Notes: a model not told the origin generated them from the letters alone. Counted from the first letter of the stretch, positions 17,865-30,829 are shown. The stretch is 32,000 bases of DNA from Idiomarina loihiensis L2TR (GCF_000008465.1 NC_006512.1:1710001-1742000), one strand, 5' to 3'. Numbers and translations are program-made.

Positions 17865-18043
17865 CCCATAATGCAAAGGAGCACGTAGCAATAAAAAACG
17901 ACAGAAACGACACGAAAATTATTCAGAAACTTAACTGTGTGGAATTTTATATGACTCTCGGCAACTCCAATTCGCTCGCTGAGAACTCAGTTGATATACT
18001 GAAAAACTAATCCGATAAATCTAAAACGTGGACGCTACTCAAA

Positions 18044-18604
18044 ATGAATAGCTTTGTGGTCATCGCAACATTTTTTACCGCATTAACAGCAGCCATTTCA
18101 TGCGCGGTAGCCTGGCGCCAGCATGCATGGAATAAAAGAAACTACTTAGCAAGTGTGAAACCCTATTTATCAGACTTCCTTGATGAAAAAACAAACCCGC
18201 TAATATTTTCCTACACGCTTACCAATAAAGGGTTGGGCCCTGCTTTAATTCAAAGCTTCGAGATGACTTGGGATGGAAAAGCCATAACGATGAAAGAGCT
18301 TCAATCCAAACTAGAGGAAAAGCTCGGTAAAAGATTCGGCGTACAAGTTGGTGAGTTTTCTGAACACTTTGCTATAGCAGCAAATGAGAGCTTTTTAGTA
18401 ATCAGTTTCTGGCAGTTAGAAGATGACAAAAATCTACAATTTTTGGTCTCGCCGGATAGCATAAAAGAAGTAAGACAAGATTTGCTCAAGTTCTGCCGCT
18501 TAAAAGTTAGCTATAAGTCTTTCCTATCAAATGAAGTACAAGTCTTTGAAACAACTTTGCTTGAAAGCCTGGCTGACGAAGTGAAGAAAAACAGTGCCGC
18601 ATAA
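18044..18604 (+). CDS. Hypothetical single-pass membrane protein (no recognisable domain)
   Basis: 186 aa. N-terminal hydrophobic helix (FVVIATFFTALTAAISCAVAW) followed by a soluble region. It lies 43 bp upstream of the helicase gene with no intervening hairpin. Translation signals are weak. Confidence 0.55.
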   Translation: MNSFVVIATFFTALTAAISCAVAWRQHAWNKRNYLASVKPYLSDFLDEKTNPLIFSYTLTNKGLGPALIQSFEMTWDGKAITMKELQSKLEEKLGKRFGVQVGEFSEHFAIAANESFLVISFWQLEDDKNLQFLVSPDSIKEVRQDLLKFCRLKVSYKSFLSNEVQVFETTLLESLADEVKKNSAA

Positions 18605-18647
18605 ATAATGTCAGTGCCGATCCATACATTTTTCATCACAACACGGA

Positions 18648-21386
18648 ATGTTTATGTTCTCACTAATAGTAAATGGCCAGGATAAAACCCGACAAATAGC
18701 TGATTGGAAAATATTTAAAGGTTCAGAGGGACAGTTCGTTCTTAAGTGCATCTTTCGCTCTGATAAAGCCTTCTTTCGTTCTCTAGAAGAATGTGAGATC
18801 ACTCCTACTGAAGAAGTCAAAGACAAGCTTCTTATAACAAAGAATGGCTCCAAAGTAAGTACTATCGAGAGTGCGTTAATCTACGCTAATAAATATGCCA
18901 TTGTTCACTACCCTGGCTCATCAGAGCCATATCTAATGAAGATGGACGCTATCGAATTTACTGATACGGCCAACATCAAAAACGGCACCGTCTTTAATTA
19001 TTTTACCTCAGTAACCAATGCTCGAATGAACCTAGCTCCCTCGGGAGAAGAGCGGGATATTGCCGAGAACATAGCTAAGCAACTAGAAAAAATAGAACCT
19101 TATCCAGAAACTGCTCTATTCTCTTATTGCACAGGAAAAAGTCAACAAAGGGCCAAGCCGAACGGTCTAGTATACCCGTTCGGAATTAACTTAAGTCAGC
19201 AACAAGCTGTCCAGCAGGCTTTTTGCTCTCAAGTCAGTATTATTGAGGGGCCGCCTGGTACAGGGAAAACACAAACAATACTAAATATTCTCGCTAATAT
19301 CGCTTTACGAGGGGAAAAGGCAGCCATTCTTTCCAATAACAATCCTGCAGTAGAGAACGTTTACGAAAAGTTAGAAAAAAGTAGTTTAGGTTACTTAGCT
19401 GCCAAATTAGGTAGTGTTCAGAATCGAAAAGACTTCTTCGCAAGTTTACCTATGAAGCCAAAGGAAAAACCTAACCAGGCTAAGCCACTTGAAGATATAA
19501 CAAGCCAAATACAACGACTAGAGCAGCTTCTCAGCGCTCAAAATGAAGCATCTAAGCTACGAAGCCAAATCAGTGAATTAAAAATCGAGCGCAAACGTTT
19601 GTTAGGTTGGCAGGACAAAAGTATTCATAAGCCGATAATGCAACCGAACAAATATAAGCTGTCTCCACAAAAAATAACGGACTTTATCGCTTACCTTACC
19701 GATATTTCTGAAAAGCGCATTACGCTATGGAATCGGCTCGAACTATGGCTACATTTCCGTATTCTCAGAACCAAACTCTTTAATACATGGGAGAAGCGAA
19801 AAAGCGTCATTCATGCGCTTCAGCTTCTTTATTACGACTACGCCTTACAAGAGAAAACAGCAGCATTAAAAACGCAAGAAGAAATACTTGAGCAGAGTAA
19901 CTTTAAGGTTTTGCTCGAAACAGTTACTAATTCCTCAATGGCGTACCTGAAAAGCTCACTATTTGATCAAGTATCATCCCATGAAGACTTTGATTCAGAA
20001 AATTACCGTCAAAATTTTCATCAATTTTTGCAGCGTTTTCCTATAATGGGTAGCAGTACTCATTCGATTATAAACTCTCTCGATCAAGGAACGATCCTAG
20101 ATTTTGCCATCATCGATGAAGCTTCTCAGCAAGATATTATTCCTGGGATACTAGCTTTAGGATGCGCGAGAAACGTGATCATTGTAGGTGACCGAAAACA
20201 GCTTCCACATATTCCTAATCAGACGGGAATACTACCGCCAAGTGACATGTATGACTGTGAAAAACACAGCTTGCTTGAATCTTTTACTCGAGTGTTCAGC
20301 GGATCCATTCCAATAACTTTGCTTAAAGAGCATTATCGGTGTCACCCTAAGATCATTCAGTTCTGTAACCAACAGTTCTATAATAATGAACTCATTCCAA
20401 TGAGGGACGACACCGCTAAAAATCCTCTGGAGCTTATCGTCACAGCTAAAGGCAATCACGCACGAGGTTACTCTAACAAAAGAGAGTTAGAATCACTCAT
20501 TAAAGTTCAGACTGAAAATGAAGGAGCGGGATGGGACGAAAGGAATAGTAAAGGGTTCATAGCACCATACAATGCACAAGTTAACCTATCTCGCTCTCAC
20601 TTACCGACAGACTTTGTTAGAAAGACAACGCATAAATTTCAAGGACGCGAGTGTGATGAGATTGTGTTTTCGACCGTCTTAGATAAAAAGCTAAGCAATC
20701 AAAGTGAACGTAAGATTACGTTCGTCGACAACCCTAACCTTGTCAACGTTGCCGTTTCTCGTGCTAAAGAGAAGTTTACTCTAGTCACTGGCGACAATGT
20801 TTTTACTGCTGGTAACAGCAGTATCGCCGCATTAGTTCGTTATATGGAGTATTACGGTGATCAATCAAGTATATATCACGCGCCTGTTATTTCTTCCTTC
20901 GATTTACTGTATGACGAGTACGATCGGTCACTAGAAAAGCTAAGAACAAAATTAAGACCTGAAGACTCACAGTACAAGTCAGAACAAATCGTTGCTCAAG
21001 AACTGCGTCAGTTGTTATCCGACGAAAAGTATAGAGAGTTTACGTTTCATGCTGAGGTTGCGCTCATCCAGTTAGTCTCTCCCAACTTAGAGGACCTGAC
21101 TCAAGCCGAGCTCACATTCATGAGGAATCTATCGAGATGTGACTTCGTTTTCTATTACAGAGTTGGCAAGCAACCATTAGCTGTTATTGAGGTTGATGGT
21201 GGACACCATAACACTCCGGAGCAAAAGCGCCGAGACGCGCTTAAAAATAGTATTTTAGAGAAAGCTGGACTCCCCCTACTTCGTTTGAATACAGATGAAG
21301 CCCATGTCTCTAGAAATATAAGCTCTTTTCTTGATACTTTAAGGCAAGCCTGTGATAAGCCGAACGATCTCGAACTCACCGGCTAA
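18648..21386 (+). CDS. Upf1/DNA2-like superfamily-1 helicase (AAA_11/AAA_12 type) with a C-terminal DUF2726/Vsr-like PD-(D/E)xK nuclease domain
   Basis: Walker A (IIEGPPGTGKTQT), Walker B (IIDEASQ), motif III (VGDRKQLP), HYRCHP, QGRECDEIVFS and motif VI (VNVAVSRAKEKF). The C-terminus CDFVFYY...LAVIEVDGGHHNTPEQKRRDALKNSILEKAGLPLLRL matches the DUF2726/DUF559 pattern as I recall it. The first ~190 aa have no recognisable domain. Confidence 0.85.
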   Translation: MFMFSLIVNGQDKTRQIADWKIFKGSEGQFVLKCIFRSDKAFFRSLEECEITPTEEVKDKLLITKNGSKVSTIESALIYANKYAIVHYPGSSEPYLMKMDAIEFTDTANIKNGTVFNYFTSVTNARMNLAPSGEERDIAENIAKQLEKIEPYPETALFSYCTGKSQQRAKPNGLVYPFGINLSQQQAVQQAFCSQVSIIEGPPGTGKTQTILNILANIALRGEKAAILSNNNPAVENVYEKLEKSSLGYLAAKLGSVQNRKDFFASLPMKPKEKPNQAKPLEDITSQIQRLEQLLSAQNEASKLRSQISELKIERKRLLGWQDKSIHKPIMQPNKYKLSPQKITDFIAYLTDISEKRITLWNRLELWLHFRILRTKLFNTWEKRKSVIHALQLLYYDYALQEKTAALKTQEEILEQSNFKVLLETVTNSSMAYLKSSLFDQVSSHEDFDSENYRQNFHQFLQRFPIMGSSTHSIINSLDQGTILDFAIIDEASQQDIIPGILALGCARNVIIVGDRKQLPHIPNQTGILPPSDMYDCEKHSLLESFTRVFSGSIPITLLKEHYRCHPKIIQFCNQQFYNNELIPMRDDTAKNPLELIVTAKGNHARGYSNKRELESLIKVQTENEGAGWDERNSKGFIAPYNAQVNLSRSHLPTDFVRKTTHKFQGRECDEIVFSTVLDKKLSNQSERKITFVDNPNLVNVAVSRAKEKFTLVTGDNVFTAGNSSIAALVRYMEYYGDQSSIYHAPVISSFDLLYDEYDRSLEKLRTKLRPEDSQYKSEQIVAQELRQLLSDEKYREFTFHAEVALIQLVSPNLEDLTQAELTFMRNLSRCDFVFYYRVGKQPLAVIEVDGGHHNTPEQKRRDALKNSILEKAGLPLLRLNTDEAHVSRNISSFLDTLRQACDKPNDLELTG

Positions 21387-21430
21387 GTCAGTTAATATCC
21401 ATACTCTATTCTGAATAGCGGACGAAAAGC

Positions 21431-21859
21431 ATGTCTAAAAGTTTAAATCCCGAAAAAGCGCTCATATGGCGGATTATCCACCGAGATAATCTCGAGTGGA
21501 TTCTTCAGCACGGGGTTTACGCTTCAAGCAGTGAATATAAGTCTGATGACTGGGTAAGTATAGGCAGTGAAGAGCTCATTGATAAGCGGTCGAAGAAAGA
21601 GGTCCCAATTGCGCCAGGAGGAATGCTAAGTGATTATGTTCCCTTCTATTTCACTCCTTTTTCGCCGATGCTTTACAACATAAAAACAGGGCGAGGTGGT
21701 GTAGTCCAACGCAACAATGATGAAATCATCATACTCGTTTCAAGTCTGTACGACGTTAATGAGGCTGGTTTAAACTACGTTTATACAGACAGCCATGCAT
21801 ACTCAGCACTAGCTAATTACTACTCCGATCTGAACAGCATTAGAACGATCGACTGGGAC
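21431..21859 (+). pseudogene. darT: darT 5' fragment (DUF4433 ssDNA thymidine ADP-ribosyltransferase toxin, codons 1-143), interrupted by an IS3-family element
   Basis: IWRIIHRDNLEWILQHG, PGGMLSDYVPFYFTPFSPMLY, LVSS and YTDSHAY line up with DarT motifs recalled from Thermus DarT. Genuine sequence ends at ...IDWD. The remaining track-ORF residues are read-through into the IS. Confidence 0.85.
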
Positions 21860-21917
21860 GGGTTCTACCCAGATTTTACGGACACATCCAAAACGAGGCA
21901 TAATATGCCCATAAGGA

Positions 21918-22211
21918 GTGTTCATGACCAAACGAAAAAAGTACAGCCCAGAGTTTAAACGTGAAGCCGTAGCGTTGACAAAACAGCCCGGTGTAAGTTG
22001 TCGCCAGGTGGCTATAGAAATCGGTATTAACCCCAATTTGCTCAGCCGTTGGCGGCGTGAAGCCGAGCCATCCTCTAAAGAAGCTTTCAAAGGCTCAGGT
22101 AACCCCCGCGACGAAGAAATGGCGCGGCTTAAACGCGAGAATGCCCGACTTAAAAAGGAACGGGATTTTTTGCGAGAAGCGGCAACGTTCTTCGCAAAAG
22201 AGTCGTCCTGA
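21918..22211 (+). CDS. IS3-family transposase OrfA (HTH)
   Basis: [18 protein letters not shown]...[27 protein letters not shown] is typical IS3 OrfA with a leucine zipper. The slippery heptamer T_TTT_TTG (22166-22172) is in the correct phase. AAAAAG at 22152-22157 is an alternative slip site. Confidence 0.9.
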
Positions 22212-22258
22212 GATATCAGGCGATAGAGCGTTGCCGCGATAAATTTCCGATACGCTTA

Positions 22259-23065
22259 ATGTGTCGATGCCTGCAAGTGTCACCCAGCGGATATTACGCC
22301 TGGGCAGTACGACCGGCCAGTGCCCGTGATGTGGAAAATCAGCGCATTCTGACCCGCATTAAGGAGATCCACGAGGACAGTGGTGGTGTCATTGGCGCAC
22401 CACGTATGCATGAAGATCTGTCTATTGAAGGTGAACGACTGAGTCTGAATCGGGTTGCCCGCTTAATGGCCGTCAATGGCGTTCAGGGCTGGCCTCGTAA
22501 GAAAGGACGAGGCCGAAAGCGACAGGCCGCTAGGCCCGAAGGTCTTAAAAATCATCTGGCACGTGACTTCACAGCGGCAGAGCCTGAAACTAAATGGGTC
22601 ACCGATATTACCGAGGTGACAACCACCGAAGGCAAGTTGTTTCTGTGCGTTGTGCTAGACTTGTACAGCAAGCTGATAGTGGGCTGGTCCATGCATCACC
22701 GTCAGGATCGGTACATGGTCATTCGCGCAGTGGAAATGGCCGTCTGGCAACGAACAAGTAGTCAGCCTGTGATTTTACATTCGGATCGCGGCGCTCAATT
22801 TACCAGCGGTGATTATCAGCGTGCTCTCAAATTTAATAACCTGATCAGCAGCATGAGCGCAGTCGGTCATTGCAGCGACAACGCTGCCTGTGAAGGATTT
22901 TTTGGGATACTGAAGCGTGAAAGAGTGAATTACCGCCGCTATCGAACAAGAGATGAAGCACGTTCAGACATCTTTGATTATATTGAACGGTTTCATAATC
23001 CAAGAATGCGTCGTAGACTGGCAAAACAAGATCAGCAGTTTAGTGCGATTTTAAACCGTCCGTAA
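22259..23065 (+). CDS. IS3-family transposase OrfB (DDE integrase core), expressed as an OrfAB fusion by -1 frameshift
   Basis: The frame is -1 relative to orfA and open from 22154 (…[31 protein letters not shown]). DDE region WVTDITEV..., [10 protein letters not shown] and [17 protein letters not shown]. Confidence 0.9.
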
Positions 23066-23081
23066 TAACGGGGTAGAACCC

Positions 23082-23297
23082 GACCTCATCCAACGGCGTG
23101 ACTTTAAACGTGACTTCAATGACTTAGGCAAGCTCGATAGATACCAGGCAGAGGCTTTAATCCACCGTCACTTCCCTATTACACTTTTAAAAGGTATTGT
23201 GTGTTATGACGAAAAAGTAAAACAATTTATCGAACAAAAAGTCGGTAACTACGGTCAAAATATAAAAGTCATAAACCGCCCAGATTGGTACTTTTGA
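23082..23297 (+). pseudogene. darT: darT 3' fragment (final 70 codons plus stop)
   Basis: After the duplicated GAC, the frame reads LIQRRDFKRDFNDLGKLDRYQAEALIHRHFPITLLKGIVCYDEK...INRPDWYF*. It contains the QAE(F/A)L catalytic-Glu motif and the terminal P.WY(Y/F). It is in frame with the 5' fragment once the IS and one GAC copy are removed. Confidence 0.85.
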
Positions 23298-24364
23298 TGC
23301 TCAATTATAAGACAGGCAATTTATTAGAATCTGAAGCTGAAGCCCTTGTTAATACCGTAAATACCGTCGGTGTTATGGGTAAAGGGATCGCTTTGATGTT
23401 TAAAGAAAGGTTTCCTGCAAATATGGAAGCCTATTCTCAGGCCTGTAAAGAGAATAAAGTGAAGACAGGCAAAATGTTCGTTACTCACACCAACGAACTG
23501 GTCAACCCTCAATGGATCGTGAACTTTCCGACAAAGCAACATTGGCGTGCCAAATCAAAAATAGAATGGATTGAAGAAGGGTTAAAAGATTTAAGAGCTT
23601 TCATTATTGATAATAACATTCGCTCAATTGCTATCCCTCCTCTAGGAGCAGGCAATGGTGGCTTAGACTGGGATAACGTTCTTCCCCTGATACAAAAGCA
23701 TCTGGGCGATATGACTGACATCGATATTCAAATTTATCAGCCTACGCAGCAGTACCAAAACGTCAGCAAACAATCTGGAGTTGAGCAACTAACAGCTGCT
23801 CGAGCAATGATTGCAGAGCTGATAAGACGTTACTGGGTATTAGGTAATGAATGTACCCTACTTGAGGTGCAAAAGCTTGCATGGTTCCTGCAACGAGCCA
23901 TACAGCAAGAAGGGAAAGAGAGCCCACTTAGACTGACCTTTCAGCCCAGAAATTACGGACCCTATGCCAGTGACTTAACGCACTTATTAAATCGATTAGA
24001 TGGCAGCTATTTACAGTCGGACAAGCGTATTCCCGACGCAAAAGCGACAGATGTGATTGCCTTTAATGATAATAAGCGGGAAACCGTTGCAGCTTTCCTA
24101 CAAGCCGAAGCAACTGAGTTTCAATATGCATTGGACAAAGCGACAGAAATTATTGAAGGGTTCGAATCTCCCTTTGGACTCGAGCTGCTCGCGACAGTTG
24201 ACTGGCTGATGACTGAGGGGAACGTAAATCCAGACGCGGATAGTGTAATAGAAGCATTAACCTATTGGCCTGCTGGTGCTAAATGGGCGCAGCGCAAACT
24301 AAATATGTTTGATAAAAAGGCCATCTCAATTGCTATCACCGCATTAATGAGAAAGCTGCACTAA
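23297..24364 (+). CDS. darG: DarG antitoxin (N-terminal macrodomain ADP-ribosylglycohydrolase plus C-terminal DarT-binding domain)
   Basis: The start is reset to the ATG at 23297, which overlaps the darT stop (TGATG). The macrodomain motifs are [34 protein letters not shown] and [15 protein letters not shown]. Confidence 0.85.
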
Positions 24365-24555
24365 CAAGCCCAAGTAGCTTGCCCAATCGAACTGGTATTA
24401 CCCTGACTACCCATACTCGATGAGAGTGCGACCCAAACTGTCGCACCATTCCTCCAAACTTGAACCCGTGACATCAATGCTATCCGTGGCATAATGACTG
24501 CAAATGAGCGATAACAATAACGCTTAGTATCAGTTGTACGGGGACGTTAATAACA

Positions 24556-24846
24556 ATGACAACGATTAGCCAGGACAGCATCAACAAAGCACTCTGGAAC
24601 GCTTGTGACACCTTTCGTGGTACAGTCAGTGCCGACACCTATAAAGACTTCATTCTGACCACTCTCTTCCTAAAATACATCTCGGATGTATGGCAGGACC
24701 ATTACGACCAATATGCAGAAGAGTATGGTGATGAGCCACAGTTCATCATTGAAATGATGAAAAACGAGCGCTTCGTGTTACCGCGTGATGCCGAACTAGG
24801 AGAGTGTAAAGGACAGGTTGGATCAGATGGCTGGACGGATTTTTAA
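24556..24846 (+). pseudogene. hsdM: Type I restriction-modification methyltransferase HsdM, N-terminal stub only
   Basis: LWNACDTFRGTVSADTYKDFILTTLFLKYISDVW...NERFVLPRDA is the HsdM_N domain. Recognisable sequence ends near 24790. No N6-methyltransferase catalytic domain, hsdS or hsdR follows. Confidence 0.75.
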
Positions 24847-24883
24847 TGGATAGGCTGAATAAATTTAAATAAGGTGTCGATTA

Positions 24884-25888
24884 ATGGCAAAGATCGGTCG
24901 CAATGAACCCTGCCCCTGCGGCAGCGGTAAAAAATATAAGCGATGTTGCATGAGTGGTGTTGGTAAACAACAAGCTGACTTTGTTGATAGCATCGAGCAG
25001 ATGTTGGCGATGAATCCTGATCTTTCGATGGACGAGCTGAATATTATCGCCGAGCACCAATCCAATAAAATTAATACCACACCTCACAAAGACTTCTGCG
25101 GCCTGGCTCCTGGGCAAGTTAATAACTGGCTTTATGCCCCTTTTCCCGAGTTAGAAGGCATCACGATAAATACGCCATCTGATTTAAGCACCAGTCCGGT
25201 AATGCGTTATTTAAAACTGATGCTGGAGACAGCATTAGCTAACGGTGGGCAGATTAAGGCGACCGCCAAGGGGAATCTCCCGGCGGCGCTAGTGAAAGAA
25301 GCCAGCGCATTTTTACCCGAATTTGCTGTTGCTCCATTCGAGCGGGCCATCAGCATTAGTGAATTTGCAGGCGCCAATGAAGACAAGTTTAACGCACTGC
25401 ATTACTGCCGTGTTCTTGCTAAAATCGCGGGGATTTTTAAGCTAAAAAGTAATAAGTTCCACGTCTCTGCCTGGGCTAAACACCAATACCAGCGAGCTGG
25501 CCTGGAATCGTTTTTCCCCATCATGCTAGAAACAGCCGTTTACAAATACAATTGGGGTTATTTTGACCTTTGGGAAAATGAAATTCCTTTACAGCACTTC
25601 TGGCTATTCATGCTGTGGCGACTTCAGCATCATAAGTCACACGAACGGTTGGTGGATGAGATGATTCAGGCATTTCCTGATTTGCTCAATGAACTCTACG
25701 AGGAAGAATACATGTCGGACAGAGACAAACTTGCCGTTTTGATTGAATCACGCTTTATTCATCGCTTTCTGCAATTCTTTGGATTTGTCATGGTTGACCC
25801 TAGGCGCGTTATTGATGGTAAACGAGTGGCGGCCCAGGTGACCTGTTTACGGTCAATGCACGAGACGTTTAACTTCAGGATTGAATAA
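24884..25888 (+). CDS. SEC-C motif (SecA C-terminal-type zinc-binding) protein of unknown function
   Basis: The N-terminal [18 protein letters not shown] is the SEC-C metal-binding motif. The remaining ~300 aa have no domain I recognise. AAGGTG ribosome-binding site 8 nt upstream. Confidence 0.7.
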
Positions 25889-25991
25889 AATTAGATTGTC
25901 GTTAACCGCCTACTGGTAAAGTAGGTTTGTGATTTGTTGAGATAGTCGATAATCTGAGAACCTTGGTGAGCGTAAGGATCAGAAGCCACAC

Positions 25992-26577
25992 ATGATTGAG
26001 ATAAAAGAAATTATCAGGCCCTTAGAGCAAGGCAGCACTCAGCCCTTTTTATGTGTCGCCGATGATGGCAAAAAATACGTTGTTAAAGGACAACGAGGAG
26101 GCACAAGACTCTCTCGGCGAAGATGATGCGTTTGCTTCCGAATTTATCGATGGTCTTCAAGAAGTCAACTATCAACTAATGATGAACTTTGGACAGGAAG
26201 TAGCTGCAAACTTATTTATATTCGATCTTTGGGTCCGTAACGGCGATCGTACTTTGTCAATGAAGGGCGGCAACCCAAATGTATTCTATCAACCTGCCGA
26301 GCAGCGCTTTTGGGCTTTAGATCATAACTTGGCATTTGATGATAGCTTCGAATTTTACGACTTTACTAAAGATCACCTCGGCAGAGACGCCTGGATACAA
26401 CAGCGGGATTTATTATCGCGACAACTTTATCAAGATCGCGCGAGTAACTGTCTTCGACAGCTTGATGAAATATTCTCGCTGGTACCAGATGAGTGGGATC
26501 TAACAGATGACTTTATGGAACAGATTCGGTTAACATTAGGTCTAATAAACCATGACAACTTCTGGGAGCGGATATAA
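25992..26577 (+). pseudogene. HipA-like kinase (the type that partners DUF3037), frameshifted and probably internally deleted
   Basis: Frame 0 gives MIEIKEIIRPLEQGSTQPFLCVADDGKKYVVKGQRGGTRL and then stops at 26124-26126. The rest (…AFASEFIDG…FDLWVRNGDRT…GNPNVFY…ALDHNLAF…) continues in the +1 frame to 26577. The combined length of about 195 aa is shorter than I expect for the family. Confidence 0.6.
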
Positions 26578-27380
26578 TGAATACGTTATGCATGTATGCC
26601 ACTGTGCGTTTTATGCCGTTCGCTGAAACCCAAGAGTTTGCTAATGTTGGTGTGGTCGTTTGTGCCCCCGATACCGGTAAAATTAAGTTTAAACTTGCAC
26701 GTAAGCGTTTTGGTCGTGTTAATCAATTCTTTGAAGACCTCGATGGCAAGTTGTTCGGCAGCACATTACAACTTTTAGAGGCCGAACTTAATCGCCTAAA
26801 AGAATTCGCCATAGACAAGCCAGGAAAAGCTACCGCTGCGTTATTTCAGGAGCTGACCCGGCACCGAGAAGGCGTGATCTCTTTTGGGGGAGTTAGCACT
26901 GCAGTAGTTAATAACATTGACGATAAGCTCATCGAATTGTACGAGCATTATGTCGAAAGAAGCTTCCTTAGCGAAAAGTATCGCGAGAGCATAATAGAAC
27001 AAAACATTCGTCAACTGTTGAAACGTGAAAATGTAAAAGACTTTAAGGCTCAAGTGCTCGAAACAAAGCTCAGTGAATTCAAGCTGCCATTCGTTAAAAA
27101 AAGTGCTAACAGTACAAAAGTCATTCGGCCTCTTGCGTTTGAACAAAAAACGCCATTAGCAGCCTACGAACATGCAGCTCAGTGGATAGATAGACTCACA
27201 CGCCTACAACATGAACAGATAGTGTTGCCTCACAACATGATGCTGGCAGTAGAAAAGCCAACAGACAAAGGGTTTGAAGAAGCGTACTTTGAAGCCGTTA
27301 ACATCGCTTCTCAAAGAGAGATAATTGTCGCTAACGCCAATGATTCTCCAGAAATTTTGAGTTTTGCTAATAACACGTGA
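26577..27380 (+). CDS. DUF3037 domain protein
   Basis: The N-terminal YATVRFMPFAETQEFANVGVVVCAP matches the DUF3037 signature (Y.v.r..P....EF.NvGvv). The ATG overlaps the upstream stop (TAATG). Confidence 0.7.
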   Translation: MNTLCMYATVRFMPFAETQEFANVGVVVCAPDTGKIKFKLARKRFGRVNQFFEDLDGKLFGSTLQLLEAELNRLKEFAIDKPGKATAALFQELTRHREGVISFGGVSTAVVNNIDDKLIELYEHYVERSFLSEKYRESIIEQNIRQLLKRENVKDFKAQVLETKLSEFKLPFVKKSANSTKVIRPLAFEQKTPLAAYEHAAQWIDRLTRLQHEQIVLPHNMMLAVEKPTDKGFEEAYFEAVNIASQREIIVANANDSPEILSFANNT

Positions 27381-27435
27381 TTCACCCGGTTTACTCTGAC
27401 AAGACAAACTCATTCATGAGCGTTCAAATCAAAAA

Positions 27436-27456
27436 ATAGGGGCTATAAGCCCCTAT
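27436..27456 (-). terminator. Hairpin terminator, canonical on the minus strand, that may also stop the plus-strand DUF3037 transcript
   Basis: ATAGGGGCT-ata-AGCCCCTAT forms a 9-bp stem. The minus strand continues TTTTTTGATTTG. There is no T tract on the plus side. Confidence 0.55.
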
Positions 27457-27624
27457 AGCTCGAGTTCAGCAAAGGCCCTATCAGCATCCTCTTGAGTAAT
27501 GCCAATATAGCGCAGCGCCAGCAACCTCAGATGGCCGAACCATAATCAGCAGTTGCCATTTAATTAATGGTCTTGTAACCATACTAAGGCGAGCATTACC
27601 TTCGAAAAGATATCTAACTACAGA

Positions 27625-28499: not shown

Positions 28500-28535
28500 G
28501 AATGAGCGGCTTTTTATATGGAATTGGTGGATCTG
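28500..28535 (-). repeat. ssrA-derived direct repeat, copy B
   Basis: gaatgagcggctttttatatggaattggtggatctg is 34/36 identical to 7824-7859. It contains only the right half of the terminator stem seen at copy A. Confidence 0.7.
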
Positions 28536-28557
28536 GCGGGCGTTGAACCCACAAACC
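28525..28557 (-). ncRNA. ssrA: tmRNA (ssrA) 3'-end fragment: T-arm, acceptor strand and CCA only; non-functional
   Basis: The minus strand reads GGTTT GTGGG TTCAACG CCCGC CAGATCC A CCA, i.e. a 5-bp T stem, 7-nt T loop, 7-nt acceptor strand, discriminator A and CCA. It is very close to the E. coli ssrA end as I recall it (GCGGGTTCAACTCCCGCCAGCTCCACCA). Upstream sequence is AT-rich and not tmRNA-like. Confidence 0.65.
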
Positions 28558-28649
28558 TTCTATATTTATCAAATATATGTGCCATTAATTGACAACCACT
28601 TTAAATTTCAGCATTGTTAACGCAACAACTATTAACTTTAAAAGTTTAT

Positions 28650-29867
28650 ATGTCAAGCTTTGAGCGTTTGGAAGAAATAAAAACTGAAAAATACTATCGA
28701 AAACTACAAAAAAAAGACGTAGACGGTCGTATAGCAAATAATAATCGATATCTAATAAACCAAGAGGATCAGTTAGGTTTTGATAGTATAGATGGTGAAA
28801 TCAACTTAAAATTTAGAGAACGTCGATTTGTAGCAGAGATAATTATCACAGCAAAAGAATTGACCAGTGACTCTCTATCAGTTGTCTCAAAGCTTGCAGG
28901 TGAACCTCAATACAAAAAATACGAAGTTAATGAATCAAAAGCAGGAATATTTTGCGATATTTTTTCTTCTTGCGATGAAATACAAATTCGCCTAAAAGAC
29001 GAAACTCTCATTGAGTCCATAACAATTTATTACTACGAAGAATCTGATTTCTCAGGTATTTTATCTGATATTAGTGATATCCGAGAGGTTATAAGCGAAA
29101 TTAATAATAAAAAAGAAAAACACAATGAGTTAATAAAAGACAATGACATATTACTACGTCAAATTGAAGAATTAGAAACTCACGTGGCCGAAGTCCGTGG
29201 AGAGGTTAAAACTTTTGAAATAGAGCGTGAAAGAGCCGAAGAGCGGTTCAATAAGCTCTTAGATCAAACCCAAACTAAAAATGAAATTATTCAAAAACAG
29301 AATGCAGAGTTATCCAGGTTAGACAAGTCAGTCAAAGGCAAGAATCTTGAGCTTAAAAGTTTAAATCGCGAAATCGGTAACTATAACGACACAGTTAAAG
29401 GCTATAGAAGTCATAGCAGAAATATAAACTATTTTTATTACTTTGCTATTATTGTATGTTTGATTTTGCTTTGGTGTTCAGTAGATGTGATTATTGAACA
29501 AGCCCTGTCATTTTCTGGTAAAGAATTTGATGATCTCGATGACGCGTTGAACTTCTTAGTAGCAAAATTCCCGGTCACTGCCGCCATGGTAACTGTCTCG
29601 TTTGTTTTGCTAAGTCTTGCGAAGTATTGCATCAACATTATAAATAATATTAATAACCAATCCTTAGAGCTAACTAAGTTTTCGGTGCTTGCAAAGCATG
29701 TAGTAGATCAAACGAATGATGAAGCTAGTAAAGATTTTTCAGTAGAAGAAATTAACAAACAAAAAGCGATGGTCATCGGTGAGTTAATGGCTGAAAAATG
29801 GAAGTCAGAATTTTCATTGCAAACAAGCAAAAAAGCTCAAAAAGACGATAGCAGTCCTGAAACTTAG
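28650..29867 (+). CDS. Hypothetical coiled-coil membrane protein
   Basis: The start is set at the ATG at 28650 (the track uses TTG at 28614). There is an N-terminal soluble region, then a long heptad-like charged segment (KKEKHNELIKDNDILLRQIEELETHVAEVRGEVKTFEIERERAEERFNKLLDQ...). Two hydrophobic helices follow (YFYYFAIIVCLILLWCSVDVII and FPVTAAMVTVSFVLLSLAKYCI). The gene is very AT-rich. Confidence 0.6.
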   Translation: MSSFERLEEIKTEKYYRKLQKKDVDGRIANNNRYLINQEDQLGFDSIDGEINLKFRERRFVAEIIITAKELTSDSLSVVSKLAGEPQYKKYEVNESKAGIFCDIFSSCDEIQIRLKDETLIESITIYYYEESDFSGILSDISDIREVISEINNKKEKHNELIKDNDILLRQIEELETHVAEVRGEVKTFEIERERAEERFNKLLDQTQTKNEIIQKQNAELSRLDKSVKGKNLELKSLNREIGNYNDTVKGYRSHSRNINYFYYFAIIVCLILLWCSVDVIIEQALSFSGKEFDDLDDALNFLVAKFPVTAAMVTVSFVLLSLAKYCINIINNINNQSLELTKFSVLAKHVVDQTNDEASKDFSVEEINKQKAMVIGELMAEKWKSEFSLQTSKKAQKDDSSPET

Positions 29868-29902
29868 TTAATCCATCGTCCATACCTTAGTACGAGCATA
29901 TT

Positions 29903-29924
29903 CCAGTTAGAATGCCCTAACTGG
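29903..29924 (+). terminator. Hairpin downstream of the coiled-coil membrane protein gene
   Basis: CCAGTTAG-aatgcc-CTAACTGG forms an 8-bp perfect stem, but the T tract is weak (ttcgct). Confidence 0.35.
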
Positions 29925-29988
29925 TTCGCTACCCACATATAATTGTAGCCGTTCGAAAGCATAAACGAAGCATAAGAATGCCGACAAT

Positions 29989-30829
29989 GAGACTGTAAAA
30001 GATTTTGTGTAAATGACTGATTGCACTGTTAAATCCAATCCTAGTTCATGATCTCGAATTGCGCCATGGCCGGTTTCCAGTTGCGTATGGGCATCGTCCA
30101 CTTTTTCGAGGCCTGATGCAAGGCCAAGTACAACACATTCATGACGGCTTCGTCATTCGGGAATGACCGCCGCGTCTTGGTGATTTTGCGCAGTGACGCG
30201 TTTAGCGACTCAATGGCATTGGTGGTGTAAATAGCTTTTCGGATTTCTACCGGGTACTCAAAGAACACGCTCAGCCGCTTCCAGTTTGCACGCCATGAAC
30301 GGCTGATGGTCGGATGCTCTTCATCCCACTTTTCTGCAAACAGCTCGAGAGCCTGCTCGGCTTCAGCCCGTGTTGCTGCGCCATAAATCAATTTGAGGTC
30401 AGCTGCGATGGTCTTGCGTTGTTTCCAGTTTACGTAGCGTAGCGAGTGGCAAATTTGATGCACAATGCACAGTTGCACCTGAGTTTTTGGGTAAACCGCT
30501 TCAATGGCTTCCGGGAAGCCCTTCAGGCCATCGCAACAGGCGATAAAGATGTCATCGACACCGTGGTTTTTAAGCTCGTTCATCACGGATAACCAGAACT
30601 TAGCGCCTTCAGATTGTGCCACCCACAGGCCGAGGAGCCCTTTTCACCGTCGGTGTTAATGCCAAGCGCCAGGTAGACCGACTTATTTTGAACAACGCCG
30701 GAGTCACGGCTACGAACCACCAGACAATAGAGGTAAACGACCGGGTAAAGCTTTGTCAGTGGTCGATGTTGCCAGACCTTTACTTCGTCCATGACGGCGT
30801 TGGTCACCTGGGAAATAATGAATCGCCAC
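29989..30829 (-). mobile_element. IS256-family element remnant (3' part only), truncated by the adjacent IS3-family element
   Basis: It carries the 3' two-thirds of a mutator-type transposase gene. Both boundaries are approximate: the right limit is the inferred IS3 left end, and the left limit is a plausible terminal repeat (gagactgtaaaagattttgtg). Confidence 0.6.
30041..30829 (-). pseudogene. IS256-family (mutator-type) transposase, 5'-truncated and frameshifted
   Basis: Two overlapping track ORFs (30583-30891 and 30041-30622) join as ...[11 protein letters not shown] / [27 protein letters not shown] only if one base is restored near 30643. About 130 N-terminal codons are missing. The expected first catalytic Asp reads Tyr ([11 protein letters not shown]). 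Confidence 0.75.

What the first reader, a model, noticed from the sequence alone, without database searches (positions are those of the whole stretch)
18044..21386. Intact two-gene module: small single-pass membrane protein plus SF1 helicase fused to a DUF2726/Vsr-like nuclease (candidate uncharacterised defence system)
The 912-aa protein has three parts: an unassignable ~190-aa N-terminal region, a complete Upf1/DNA2-type SF1 helicase core with every motif from Walker A to motif VI, and a C-terminal PD-(D/E)xK domain of the DUF2726/DUF559 kind.

Helicase-nuclease fusions of this class are the logic of several described single-protein immunity systems: Hhe (helicase plus Vsr-like nuclease), Nhi, Hna and Mokosh type II (COG1112-type helicase plus PLD nuclease).

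This protein differs in two ways. It carries a novel N-terminal domain, and it is preceded by a 186-aa membrane-anchored protein only 43 bp upstream with no terminator between them. No such partner belongs to those systems as far as I know.

The module sits at the head of a defence-type gene string (DarTG, hsdM stub) inside an ssrA-associated island, and it is the only module there with no inactivating lesion. Its sequence is noticeably AT-richer than the flanking metabolic genes.
Basis: partly seen in the sequence, partly recalled or inferred. Interest (0 to 1): 0.8.

Follow-up and report, generated by a model that had tools for sequence, protein, structure and literature searches.

The report
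Solitary helicase-nuclease gene with local hitchhiker
The large gene is an intact member of a widespread, still unnamed family of stand-alone helicase-nuclease enzymes that probably attack invading DNA or RNA, while the small membrane-protein gene in front of it travels with it only in this bacterium's close relatives, so it is not a conserved partner.

Summary
Both ORFs exist as described. The 912-aa protein (more likely 910 aa, starting at 18654) has an unassigned N-terminal domain, an SF1 Upf1/Mokosh-type helicase core and a C-terminal DUF2726/Vsr-like nuclease.

It is not unusual. It belongs to a large family conserved over its full length: more than 2,700 hits, 50-60% identity across Proteobacteria, about 35% in Firmicutes, and present in 12% of complete E. 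coli genomes. No named defence model matches beyond the helicase core.

The two-gene claim fails at depth. In 86 other loci of this helicase family, a profile of the small protein finds no member, and no other neighbour recurs. The small protein belongs to a separate, divergent, phage-associated family of membrane-anchored beta-sandwich proteins. Its distant members lie next to unrelated genes, never this helicase.

At shallow depth the pair is a discrete 3.4-kb cassette (17967-21401). It is shared at 85-98% nucleotide identity with three other contigs. Two have different flanks, one of them a tmRNA-integrase island.

DarTG adjacency is also specific to this lineage. No ssrA lies in the window.

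Verdict: a plausible single-gene defence candidate and a new variant of a known kind. Interest is moderate.

The parts
17967..21401 (.). 3.4-kb two-gene cassette, the unit of DNA shared with related contigs
   Evidence: blastn: window 17967-21401 matches L081 at 92.8% identity. Window 17967 onward matches L094 at 97.9% and L095 at 85.0%. The left end is identical in all three. L081 and L094/L095 have different flanking sequence.
18044..18604 (+). Gene for a 186-aa membrane-anchored protein of a divergent, phage-associated family (N-terminal TM helix plus cytoplasmic alpha/beta-sandwich)
   Evidence: ORF. dN/dS is 0.11-0.16 against the L081 and L095 copies. The family has 261 representative clusters at E<=1e-3. 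It hits phrog_35671 at E 3.6e-8. AF2 pLDDT is 93.1. Foldseek against BFVD hits uncharacterised siphovirus TM proteins at E 2.3e-5. There is no significant PDB match.
18050..18115 (+). N-terminal transmembrane helix of the small protein (about residues 3-24). Basic residues R25, K31, R32 and K39 follow it, so the globular domain is inferred to be cytoplasmic.
   Evidence: Hydropathy scan gives TM residues 1-24. AF2 gives a helix at 3-37. The topology is an inference from the positive-inside rule.
18648..21386 (+). Gene for the SF1 helicase / Vsr-like nuclease fusion protein (912 aa from 18648; the likely true start is 18654, giving 910 aa)
   Evidence: dN/dS is 0.13 against L081.
18648..19169 (+). 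Family-specific N-terminal domain (residues 1-174): 12 beta-strands followed by 3 helices, with no known family
   Evidence: AF2 pLDDT is 90.6. Foldseek against PDB gives no hit at E<=0.001; the weak hits are tandem Tudor, KOW and eS4 small beta-barrels. There is no Pfam hit for any of 42 members at E<0.002 and no PDB sequence hit. The domain is conserved across the family.
19185..20789 (+). Upf1/Mokosh-type SF1 helicase core (residues 180-714). Walker A lies at 19248-19271 and motif II DEASQ at 20115-20129.
   Evidence: Pfam AAA_11 and AAA_12. The PADLOC MkoA and MkoC helicase parts match. PDB profile hits are IGHMBP2, Sen1, Upf1 and DNA2. The motifs are invariant.
20976..21320 (+). C-terminal DUF2726 / Vsr-like PD-(D/E)xK nuclease domain (residues 777-891), with invariant D832, E848, D850 and H854
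   Evidence: Pfam DUF2726 at E 1.3e-15 and DUF559 at E 1.3e-4.

Best explanation
The large gene encodes an intact member of a widespread but unnamed family of stand-alone enzymes of about 900 aa. Each member has three parts: a family-specific N-terminal beta-rich domain, a Upf1/Mokosh-type SF1 helicase, and a C-terminal Vsr-like (DUF2726) nuclease.

The family behaves as an accessory gene. It is patchy within species, it sits in variable regions, islands and prophage ends, and it has no conserved partner.

Inferred mechanism: the protein acts alone as a nucleic-acid-targeting immunity or anti-mobile-element enzyme. The N-terminal domain, which weakly resembles tandem small beta-barrels, would recognise or gate on a foreign nucleic-acid or protein cue. 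The ATP-driven helicase would load on and translocate along single-stranded DNA or RNA, such as a replication intermediate. The Vsr-like nuclease would cut it.

The 186-aa gene upstream comes from a different, divergent, phage-associated family of inner-membrane-anchored beta-sandwich proteins. It joined the helicase gene recently, in the Idiomarina lineage. There the two are inherited and exchanged as one 3.4-kb cassette and are probably co-transcribed. It is not a general component of the helicase's function. It is most likely an independent accessory (moron-like) gene or a lineage-specific modulator.

Shown: the domain architecture, motif integrity, family size, lack of conserved partners on either side, the cassette boundaries, and purifying selection.
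Inferred: the defence role, the substrate, and the roles of the N-terminal domain and the small protein.
For: Architecture and intact motifs.

Family breadth: more than 2,700 hits, with the top 120 all 850-940 aa at 92-100% coverage. In GTDB genomes, 584 stretches encode a relative. The E. coli homologue is in 648 of 5,426 complete genomes.

No conserved neighbour: the best neighbour cluster is present in 7 of 72 loci. Among the 130 nearest neighbours, 152 Pfam families were matched and none of those listed is present more than 3 times.

Small protein absent from the other helicase loci.

Helicase absent next to distant small-protein relatives, which instead neighbour type I HsdR, GcvP, a His-kinase/LytTR pair, peptidase M1 and a serine recombinase.

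Defence flavour: strong PADLOC hits among the nearest neighbours include PDC-S34 (3 neighbours), type I REase (2), mad3 (2), mad8 (2), PbeA (2), and single hits to OloB, AbiEii, PDC-M01B, PDC-S02 and ZorF. In all, 71 models were matched at E<=1e-10 among 130 proteins. The window copy sits beside DarTG, an hsdM stub and a PDC-M66-like pair. Copies occur at the ends of prophage contigs. The helicase core is closest to Mokosh MkoA/MkoC.

Cassette. L081 carries it beside an integrase and tmRNA.

Purifying selection on both genes.
Against: No experiment links any member of this family to phage or plasmid restriction.

The defence enrichment is rough. No matched background was computed, and PADLOC models include generic domains. 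Most neighbours are ordinary metabolic or regulatory genes.

The tight 43-49-bp spacing, the shared cassette boundary and the predicted cytoplasmic location of the small protein's globular domain are all compatible with real functional coupling in this lineage.

No promoter was detected by consensus scan, so the operon structure is unproven.

I could not check the newest DefenseFinder models, so the family may already have a name that I cannot see.
Confidence: 0.6

Rival explanations
1. It is a genuine, recently assembled two-component system. The membrane-anchored 186-aa protein would tether, sense for or gate the helicase-nuclease (for example by detecting phage entry at the inner membrane), so in Idiomarina the pair works as a unit.
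For: The genes share a strand with a 43-49-bp gap and no terminator between them. The two genes share one cassette with the same left end in three other contigs, two with different flanks. Both are under purifying selection. The globular domain is predicted to be cytoplasmic, on the same side as the helicase (inference). Other defence systems are known to acquire add-on components (DarHTG and ietHAS, PMC13069673).
Against: Co-occurrence is limited to copies at 83% protein identity or more. None of 86 other helicase loci has a family member, and none of 33 distant small-protein loci has the helicase. Synonymous divergence between the window and L081 is 0.50 for the small gene and 0.20 for the helicase, which suggests a mosaic history inside the cassette. 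The helicase family clearly functions without the small protein elsewhere.
Confidence: 0.15
2. The helicase is an accessory component of the adjacent DarTG toxin-antitoxin defence system, a 'DarHTG'-like three-gene arrangement.
For: DarT starts 44 bp downstream on the same strand. DarTG variants that recruited a helicase have been validated experimentally (PMC13069673). In one population variant (L088) the string small gene, helicase, DarT, DarG is contiguous.
Against: tblastn finds no DarT or DarG in any of the 78 other helicase-family loci or in L081. Shared cassette DNA ends at 21401, 30 bp before the DarT start, and in L081 a different gene follows. The published DarH is a UvrD-like helicase without a nuclease and pairs with a different DarG type. 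In the window DarT is destroyed by an IS while the helicase stays intact, and in L088 the reverse holds, so the two decay independently.
Confidence: 0.03
3. The helicase-nuclease is not an immunity protein. It would serve DNA repair or recombination, or the maintenance or transfer of the mobile element that carries it.
For: The closest solved relatives are RNA/DNA-processing helicases (IGHMBP2, Sen1, Upf1, DNA2). Vsr-type nucleases include repair enzymes and homing endonucleases (PMC3424549). Many neighbours are ordinary genes. There are no functional data.
Against: The distribution is patchy (12% of E. coli genomes). Copies are frequently pseudogenised: frameshifted in O157:H7 EDL933 and in L088. 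Contexts are highly variable, include defence genes and prophage ends, and show no linkage to conjugation or replication genes. The helicase core is closest to Mokosh defence helicases.
Confidence: 0.15

Closest known systems
Mokosh type II (MkoC) and type I (MkoA) defence helicases
   Same: These are the best PADLOC matches. The helicase core aligns to MkoA profile positions 616-1100 of 1112 (137 bits) and to MkoC 772-964 of 1136 (139 bits). The same pattern appears in 8 diverse family members. The logic is the same: a COG1112/Upf1-type helicase coupled to a nuclease, in a single polypeptide in type II.
   Different: The nuclease here is a Vsr-like PD-(D/E)xK (DUF2726), not a PLD domain. The N-terminal roughly 600 residues of MkoA and the MkoC N-terminus are not matched. 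There is no MkoB partner. The N-terminal beta-rich domain is different.
Hhe (Gao et al. 2020), a DUF4011 / SF1 helicase / Vsr-like nuclease single-protein system
   Same: Both are single proteins that combine an AAA_11/AAA_12 SF1 helicase with a Vsr/DUF559-type nuclease.
   Different: This protein is half the size (912 aa, against models of about 1,800-1,900 positions). Only the Walker A lobe aligns: NCBIfam NF042953 scores 80 bits against a cutoff of 2000, and the PADLOC Hhe model scores 64 bits. There is no DUF4011 and no DUF3320 hit.
CoCoNuT type III-B CnuH (Bell et al., eLife 2024, PMC11090510)
   Same: It is a Upf1-like SF1 helicase fused directly to a Vsr-like PD-(D/E)xK nuclease.
   Different: CnuH is encoded in a nearly invariant association with McrB/McrC homologues (CnuB/CnuC). 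No such genes flank this protein or its relatives.
Nhi (nuclease-helicase immunity, Staphylococcus) and Hna
   Same: Both are compact single-protein helicase-plus-nuclease immunity enzymes. The literature links them to phage replication intermediates and SSB.
   Different: No PADLOC model named Nhi or Hna was hit by this protein or by 8 relatives. From memory, Nhi has its nuclease N-terminal to the helicase and Hna is an SF2 helicase. Neither sequence was available for direct comparison.
Uncharacterised siphovirus transmembrane proteins / phrog_35671 (relevant to the 186-aa protein)
   Same: The small protein matches phrog_35671 by sequence at E 3.6e-8. Its model matches phage TM proteins such as Rhizobium phage RHEph01 L7TMN9 at E 2.3e-5, TM-score about 0.4. 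Four prophage contigs encode relatives near one end.
   Different: None of these has a known function. Identity is 30% or less outside the close subfamily.

Membership tests
SF1 Upf1-like (AAA_11/AAA_12) helicases | Two RecA-like lobes carrying Walker A, motif II (DExx) and motifs III-VI, and matching AAA_11 plus AAA_12 | tested here: met
   AAA_11 scores 61 bits and AAA_12 82 bits, both above the cutoff of 27. GPPGTGKT, DEASQ and QGRE are invariant. PDB profile hits are IGHMBP2, Sen1, Upf1 and DNA2.
DUF2726 / Vsr-like PD-(D/E)xK nucleases | Match to PF10881 or PF04480 with conserved acidic and His catalytic residues | tested here: met
   DUF2726 scores 57.7 bits (cutoff 24.7) and DUF559 22.2 bits (cutoff 20.6). 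D832, E848, D850 and H854 are invariant in 20 sequences.
Hhe | Full-length match to the Hhe model (about 1,800-1,900 positions), including the N-terminal DUF4011 | tested here: not met
   NF042953 scores 80.4 bits against a cutoff of 2000, aligned only at residues 183-337. PADLOC PDLC02194 scores 63.6 bits, at profile positions 429-549 of 1911. There is no DUF4011 hit.
Mokosh type II (MkoC) | COG1112-type helicase fused to a C-terminal PLD-family nuclease | tested here: not met
   The helicase part matches, with the best stretch ending at profile position 964 of 1136. There is no PLD domain in Pfam, and the C-terminus is DUF2726 instead.
Mokosh type I (MkoA + MkoB) | A large MkoA helicase with an adjacent MkoB PLD nuclease gene | tested here: not met
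   Only MkoA profile positions 616-1100 of 1112 are matched. The neighbours are the 186-aa TM protein and DarT. No conserved neighbour appears in 72 loci.
CoCoNuT type III-B | CnuH helicase-Vsr fusion encoded together with McrB-like GTPase (CnuB) and McrC-like (CnuC) genes | tested here: not met
   The definition is taken from PMC11090510. No such genes are adjacent in the window, and none recurs among the 130 nearest neighbours of relatives.
DarHTG (helicase-associated DarTG) | Conserved operonic association of the helicase with DarT and DarG; DarH is UvrD-like | tested here: not met
   No DarT or DarG lies in the 78 other loci or in L081. The cassette ends before DarT. The helicase is Upf1-like, not UvrD-like.
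Nhi / Hna | Match to the Nhi or Hna protein models. From memory, Nhi is a nuclease N-terminal to an SF1 helicase and Hna is an SF2 helicase plus a nuclease. | tested here: inconclusive
   No PADLOC hit carries these names for this protein or for 8 relatives. I could not verify that the library holds such models, and I had no reference sequences.
Conserved two-gene system (small TM protein + helicase-nuclease) | The two gene families co-occur across divergent genomes | tested here: not met
   The small-protein HMM finds 0 members in 86 other helicase loci. The helicase is adjacent in 0 of 33 loci of small-protein relatives at 40% identity or less. Co-occurrence is seen only at 83% identity or more.

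The most novel reading that the evidence does not exclude
In the Idiomarina lineage, a solitary helicase-nuclease immunity enzyme has recently captured a phage-derived, inner-membrane-anchored beta-sandwich protein as a new sensor or tether. This would be a two-component system caught at birth, in which membrane events such as phage DNA entry gate a cytoplasmic helicase-nuclease. It would be an example of how single-gene defences gain accessory modules.
Probability: 0.12. Interest if true: 0.6.

Novelty: new variant of a known kind. Interest (0 to 1): 0.35.

Why it matters
The helicase-nuclease family is large. It occurs across Proteobacteria and Firmicutes and in 12% of complete E. coli genomes, including EHEC and O104:H4 lineages. 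Its domain order is distinct: a new beta-rich N-domain, then a Mokosh-type helicase, then a Vsr-like nuclease. NCBI's June 2026 annotation models still call it only 'AAA domain-containing protein'.

If it is an immunity enzyme, it would add a common single-gene system to the catalogue. It would also supply a third nuclease type (Vsr-like, beside PLD and HEPN) coupled to Upf1/Mokosh-type helicases.

For the finding as written, the main value is corrective. The eye-catching 'membrane partner' is a local association, not a system-defining component.

Tried and rejected
Rejected interpretations:
1. The small protein as a conserved partner. Rejected by tblastn, by an HMM search of 4,452 ORFs in 86 loci, and by the reverse test on 34 metagenome loci plus L080.
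2. A DarHTG-like three-gene system. Rejected.
3. ssrA in the window. None found.

Searches that led nowhere:
4. A single-protein scan of genome contigs found nothing; it worked only with an alignment.
5. A single-subfamily viral scan for the small protein found nothing; with the wider alignment A5 it found 4 loci.
8. A Pfam scan of 42 N-terminal domains at E<=1 gave only scattered chance hits, and no AbiJ-NTD family.
9. Profile searches against PDB sequences for the N-domain and the small protein found nothing.
10. Literature searches on DUF2726, AAA_11/AAA_12, Hhe/Vsr and Upf1-like/anti-phage found no paper that names this family.

Not used: the third word-index protein search.
Full report
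**1. Observation**

The window has two co-oriented ORFs exactly where stated: 18044-18604 (186 aa) and 18648-21386 (912 aa), 43 bp apart.

Pfam places three domains on the large protein:
- AAA_11 at residues 180-520
- AAA_12 at residues 541-714
- DUF2726 at residues 777-891, with a weaker DUF559 hit

Residues 1-179 match nothing in Pfam, NCBIfam, PADLOC or PHROGs.

In an alignment with 19 homologues, all helicase motifs are invariant (GPPGTGKT, DEASQ, GDxxQL, QGRE, VAVSRA). So are the Vsr-type nuclease residues (D832, E848-x-D850-G, H854). The protein therefore looks catalytically intact.

That alignment, the gene calls in most population copies (910 aa) and the position of a GGA Shine-Dalgarno-like triplet all point to the second ATG, at 18654, as the true start.

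The small protein has an N-terminal hydrophobic helix. It is followed by a cluster of basic residues, so by the positive-inside rule the globular part should be cytoplasmic. This is an inference.

GC is 0.39-0.41 over the pair, somewhat below the flanks. No terminator-like site separates the genes, and no consensus promoter was detected either.

No tRNA or tmRNA is present anywhere in the window.

**2. Source and population**

The small protein is 100% identical to a protein annotated in Idiomarina abyssalis.

In about ten population copies the order is the same: LysR regulator, small gene, helicase, DarT, then (IS), DarG, an hsdM stub and further genes.

An IS3-family element at about 21860-23081 splits DarT in the window. 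The empty site is seen in L088, with a 3-bp overlap consistent with a target duplication. In L088, DarTG is intact but the helicase is frameshifted into 171 and 752 aa. The modules therefore decay independently.

**3. The helicase-nuclease family**

The word-index search returned more than 2,700 hits. The top 120 are all 850-940 aa and cover 92-100% of the query. One is at 94% identity and the rest at 54-59%. They come from Marinobacter, Halomonas, Burkholderia, Pseudomonas, Photobacterium, Brenneria and others.

These include Firmicutes at 32-37% identity.

The N-terminal region is conserved throughout, so it is a family feature rather than a peculiarity of this protein.

In E. coli the homologue (51.6% identity) is present in 648 of 5,426 complete genomes, essentially always chromosomal. 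RefSeq/PGAP annotates it only as 'AAA domain-containing protein'. The EDL933 copy is frameshifted.

NCBIfam (June 2026) has no model that the protein passes. The scores are:
- Hhe: 80 bits against a cutoff of 2000
- ProA: 96 bits against 1500
- PLuB: 75 bits against 999
- IGHMBP2 family: 141 bits against 349

PADLOC matches only the helicase core of Mokosh MkoA/MkoC, PDC-S37 and Hhe. The same pattern holds for eight diverse family members.

Among solved structures, only eukaryotic-type Upf1-like helicases match by sequence (IGHMBP2, Sen1, Upf1, DNA2).

**4. Is there a conserved partner?**

I called ORFs in 72 genome loci carrying an intact family member. The gene upstream varies in size, strand and distance.

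Clustering 581 neighbour ORFs within 4 kb gave no family present in more than 7 of the 72 loci.

tblastn with the 186-aa protein found nothing better than E 0.2.

An HMM built from 50 members of the small-protein family, searched against all 4,452 ORFs of 60 aa or more in 86 helicase loci, hit only the window and L081. Those loci include E. coli and prophage copies.

The helicase-nuclease is therefore a solitary gene.

**5. The small protein family**

The word-index search found only three relatives, at 100, 88 and 38% identity.

A full HMMER pass over 1.84 billion representatives found more: 261 clusters at E<=1e-3 and 31 at E<=1e-10. Nearly all are 160-200 aa and match end to end.

The shared features are an N-terminal TM helix, a (Q/R)xHNxLSVxP segment, an NKGLGPA motif and a C-terminal YxS motif.

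The protein hits phrog_35671, of unknown function, at E 3.6e-8.

AF2 gives a confident model (pLDDT 93.1): a long N-terminal helix plus an alpha/beta-sandwich. The model has no significant PDB match, only weak Ig-like/GAE resemblance. It does match uncharacterised siphovirus transmembrane proteins in BFVD at E 2.3e-5.

Relatives occur near the ends of four prophage contigs.

dN/dS of 0.11-0.16 shows that it is a real, constrained gene.

**6. Reverse test**

Of 34 metagenome loci encoding small-protein relatives, only the two near-identical ones carry the helicase: L094 at 99% and L095 at 88%.

P0123 (38% identity) is followed by a serine-recombinase-like gene.

Other relatives sit in varied contexts:
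- beside a type I HsdR plus two unknown proteins (L099)
- near glycine dehydrogenase (L096)
- after a histidine kinase, phosphoesterase and LytTR regulator (L108 group)
- beside an M1 peptidase (L125)

The three closest relatives share a different downstream gene of 268-301 aa with unknown function.

The pairing is therefore not conserved from either side.

**7. A real cassette at shallow depth**

Window 17967-21401 aligns to L081 at 92.8% identity, and alignment stops 77 bp before the small gene and 15 bp after the helicase stop. L094 and L095 begin their alignment at exactly the same left position.

L081 has unrelated flanks. L094 and L095 share an upstream flank with each other that differs from both the window and L081; both contigs end inside the helicase gene, so their right flank is unknown.

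In L081 the cassette lies next to an unannotated 1,107-aa gene, a P4-type integrase and a tmRNA gene.

An 84-bp remnant of that integrase gene survives at window 27514-27597.

The two genes are thus exchanged as a unit among close relatives. Synonymous divergence between the window and L081 is 0.50 for the small gene and 0.20 for the helicase, which hints at a mosaic history even inside the cassette.

**8. The N-terminal domain**

AF2 on a 42-sequence alignment gives pLDDT 90.6, with twelve beta-strands followed by three helices.

Foldseek against the PDB finds nothing at E<=0.001. The weak top hits (TM-score about 0.2) are dominated by tandem small beta-barrels: eS4/KOW, 53BP1 and FXR tandem Tudor, Agenet and YopX. 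That resemblance is only a lead.

Neither a relaxed Pfam scan of all 42 members nor a profile search of PDB sequences assigned it.

**9. Context and defence association**

Of the 130 nearest neighbours of at least 110 aa in about 70 loci, PADLOC models were hit at E<=1e-10 by a noticeable minority. Hits include PDC-S34 (3 neighbours), type I REase (2), mad3 (2), mad8 (2), PbeA (2), and single hits to OloB, AbiEii, PDC-M01B, PDC-S02, PDC-M05B and ZorF. In all, 71 models were matched.

Pfam shows the remainder to be a very mixed bag, with 152 families matched and none of those listed present more than three times. It includes guaA-adjacent sites, phage tail genes and regulators.

Full-length copies also occur in six viral contigs, two of them at a contig end.

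The window copy sits in a decayed defence-type string:
- IS-split DarT
- DarG
- hsdM stub
- a SEC-C protein
- an N-truncated HipA_2 protein plus DUF3037, equal to PADLOC candidate PDC-M66A/B

Together with the patchy distribution and frequent pseudogenisation, this favours an accessory immunity-type role. It is not a controlled enrichment test.

**10. Rival: DarHTG**

A 2026 paper validated DarTG variants that recruited a UvrD-like helicase (PMC13069673).

Here the helicase precedes DarT by 44 bp. However, DarT and DarG are absent from all 78 other loci and from L081. The cassette also ends before DarT, and the helicase type differs. This rival is rejected.

**11. Comparison with known systems**

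The logic of a Upf1-type SF1 helicase plus a nuclease in one polypeptide is that of several known systems:
- Mokosh type II, which uses a PLD nuclease
- Hhe, which has DUF4011, a helicase and a Vsr-like nuclease in about 1,800-1,900 aa
- CoCoNuT type III-B CnuH, a helicase-Vsr fusion that always comes with McrBC homologues (PMC11090510)
- Nhi

Membership in each was tested and not met, or was inconclusive for Nhi and Hna. See the membership table.

The family is best described as a new, unnamed variant of the helicase-nuclease single-protein kind. Literature searches found no paper that names it. DUF2726 is described only as a Vsr-clade REase-fold domain found on mobile elements and in predicted defence fusions.

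**12. Verdict**

The helicase-nuclease is a credible, intact, uncharacterised defence candidate. The feature that made the finding look special, a dedicated membrane partner forming a two-gene system, does not hold beyond the immediate lineage.

Interest is moderate. The family is common and easy to test, but it is not different in kind from known systems.

Noticed in passing
window 21860-23081 (orfA 21918-22211, orfB 22259-23065): An IS3-family insertion sequence splits DarT. The empty site in L088 shows a 3-bp overlap consistent with a target-site duplication. In L088, DarTG is intact but the helicase is frameshifted, so different members of the population have lost different modules.
   Followed up: partly
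window 26053-27380: An N-terminally truncated HipA_2-like kinase (174 aa) is followed by a DUF3037 protein (267 aa). The pair matches PADLOC candidate system PDC-M66A/B (E 1.5e-9 and 4.4e-21).
   Followed up: partly
window 27514-27597: An 84-bp stretch is 82% identical to an internal part of the P4-type integrase gene of L081, which there lies next to a tmRNA gene. It is probably an integrase remnant marking the right edge of the island (about 17967-27600).
   Followed up: partly
window 28500-30700: A very low-GC segment (0.33-0.35) holds a 417-aa ORF (28614-29867) with no convincing family. Next to it is a fragment of a Mutator-family transposase (30041-30622). This is probably a separate foreign insertion.
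   Followed up: no
window 24556-24846 and 24884-25888: A 96-aa hsdM N-terminal stub is followed by an intact 334-aa protein with an N-terminal SEC-C motif. That protein has weak PADLOC hits (PDC-S12, E2-like) covering the motif only.
   Followed up: partly
L096 6623-7429, L098 1349-2254, L099 6594-7499: The three closest distant relatives of the small protein (36-40% identity) are each followed, about 70 bp downstream, by a shared 268-301-aa protein with no family. In L099 this pair sits directly after a type I HsdR gene. It may be a different two-gene unit built around the same TM protein family.
   Followed up: partly
L081 12806-16129 (- strand): A 1,107-aa protein with no Pfam domain lies between the cassette and the integrase/tmRNA in the related island. 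It has only a marginal PADLOC NsnC hit (E 3.8e-4).
   Followed up: no
L092 11183-13038 (E. coli): In E. coli the helicase homologue lies 0.5 kb upstream of a PAPS-reductase-like and ParB-N-domain gene pair (IbrA/IbrB-like, with weak BrxP and DndC similarity). It sits within an IS-rich island that also carries a ShlB-family gene.
   Followed up: no
window 18044-21386 vs L081: Synonymous divergence is 0.50 for the small gene but 0.20 for the helicase between the same two contigs. This suggests recombination inside the cassette or different residence times.
   Followed up: no
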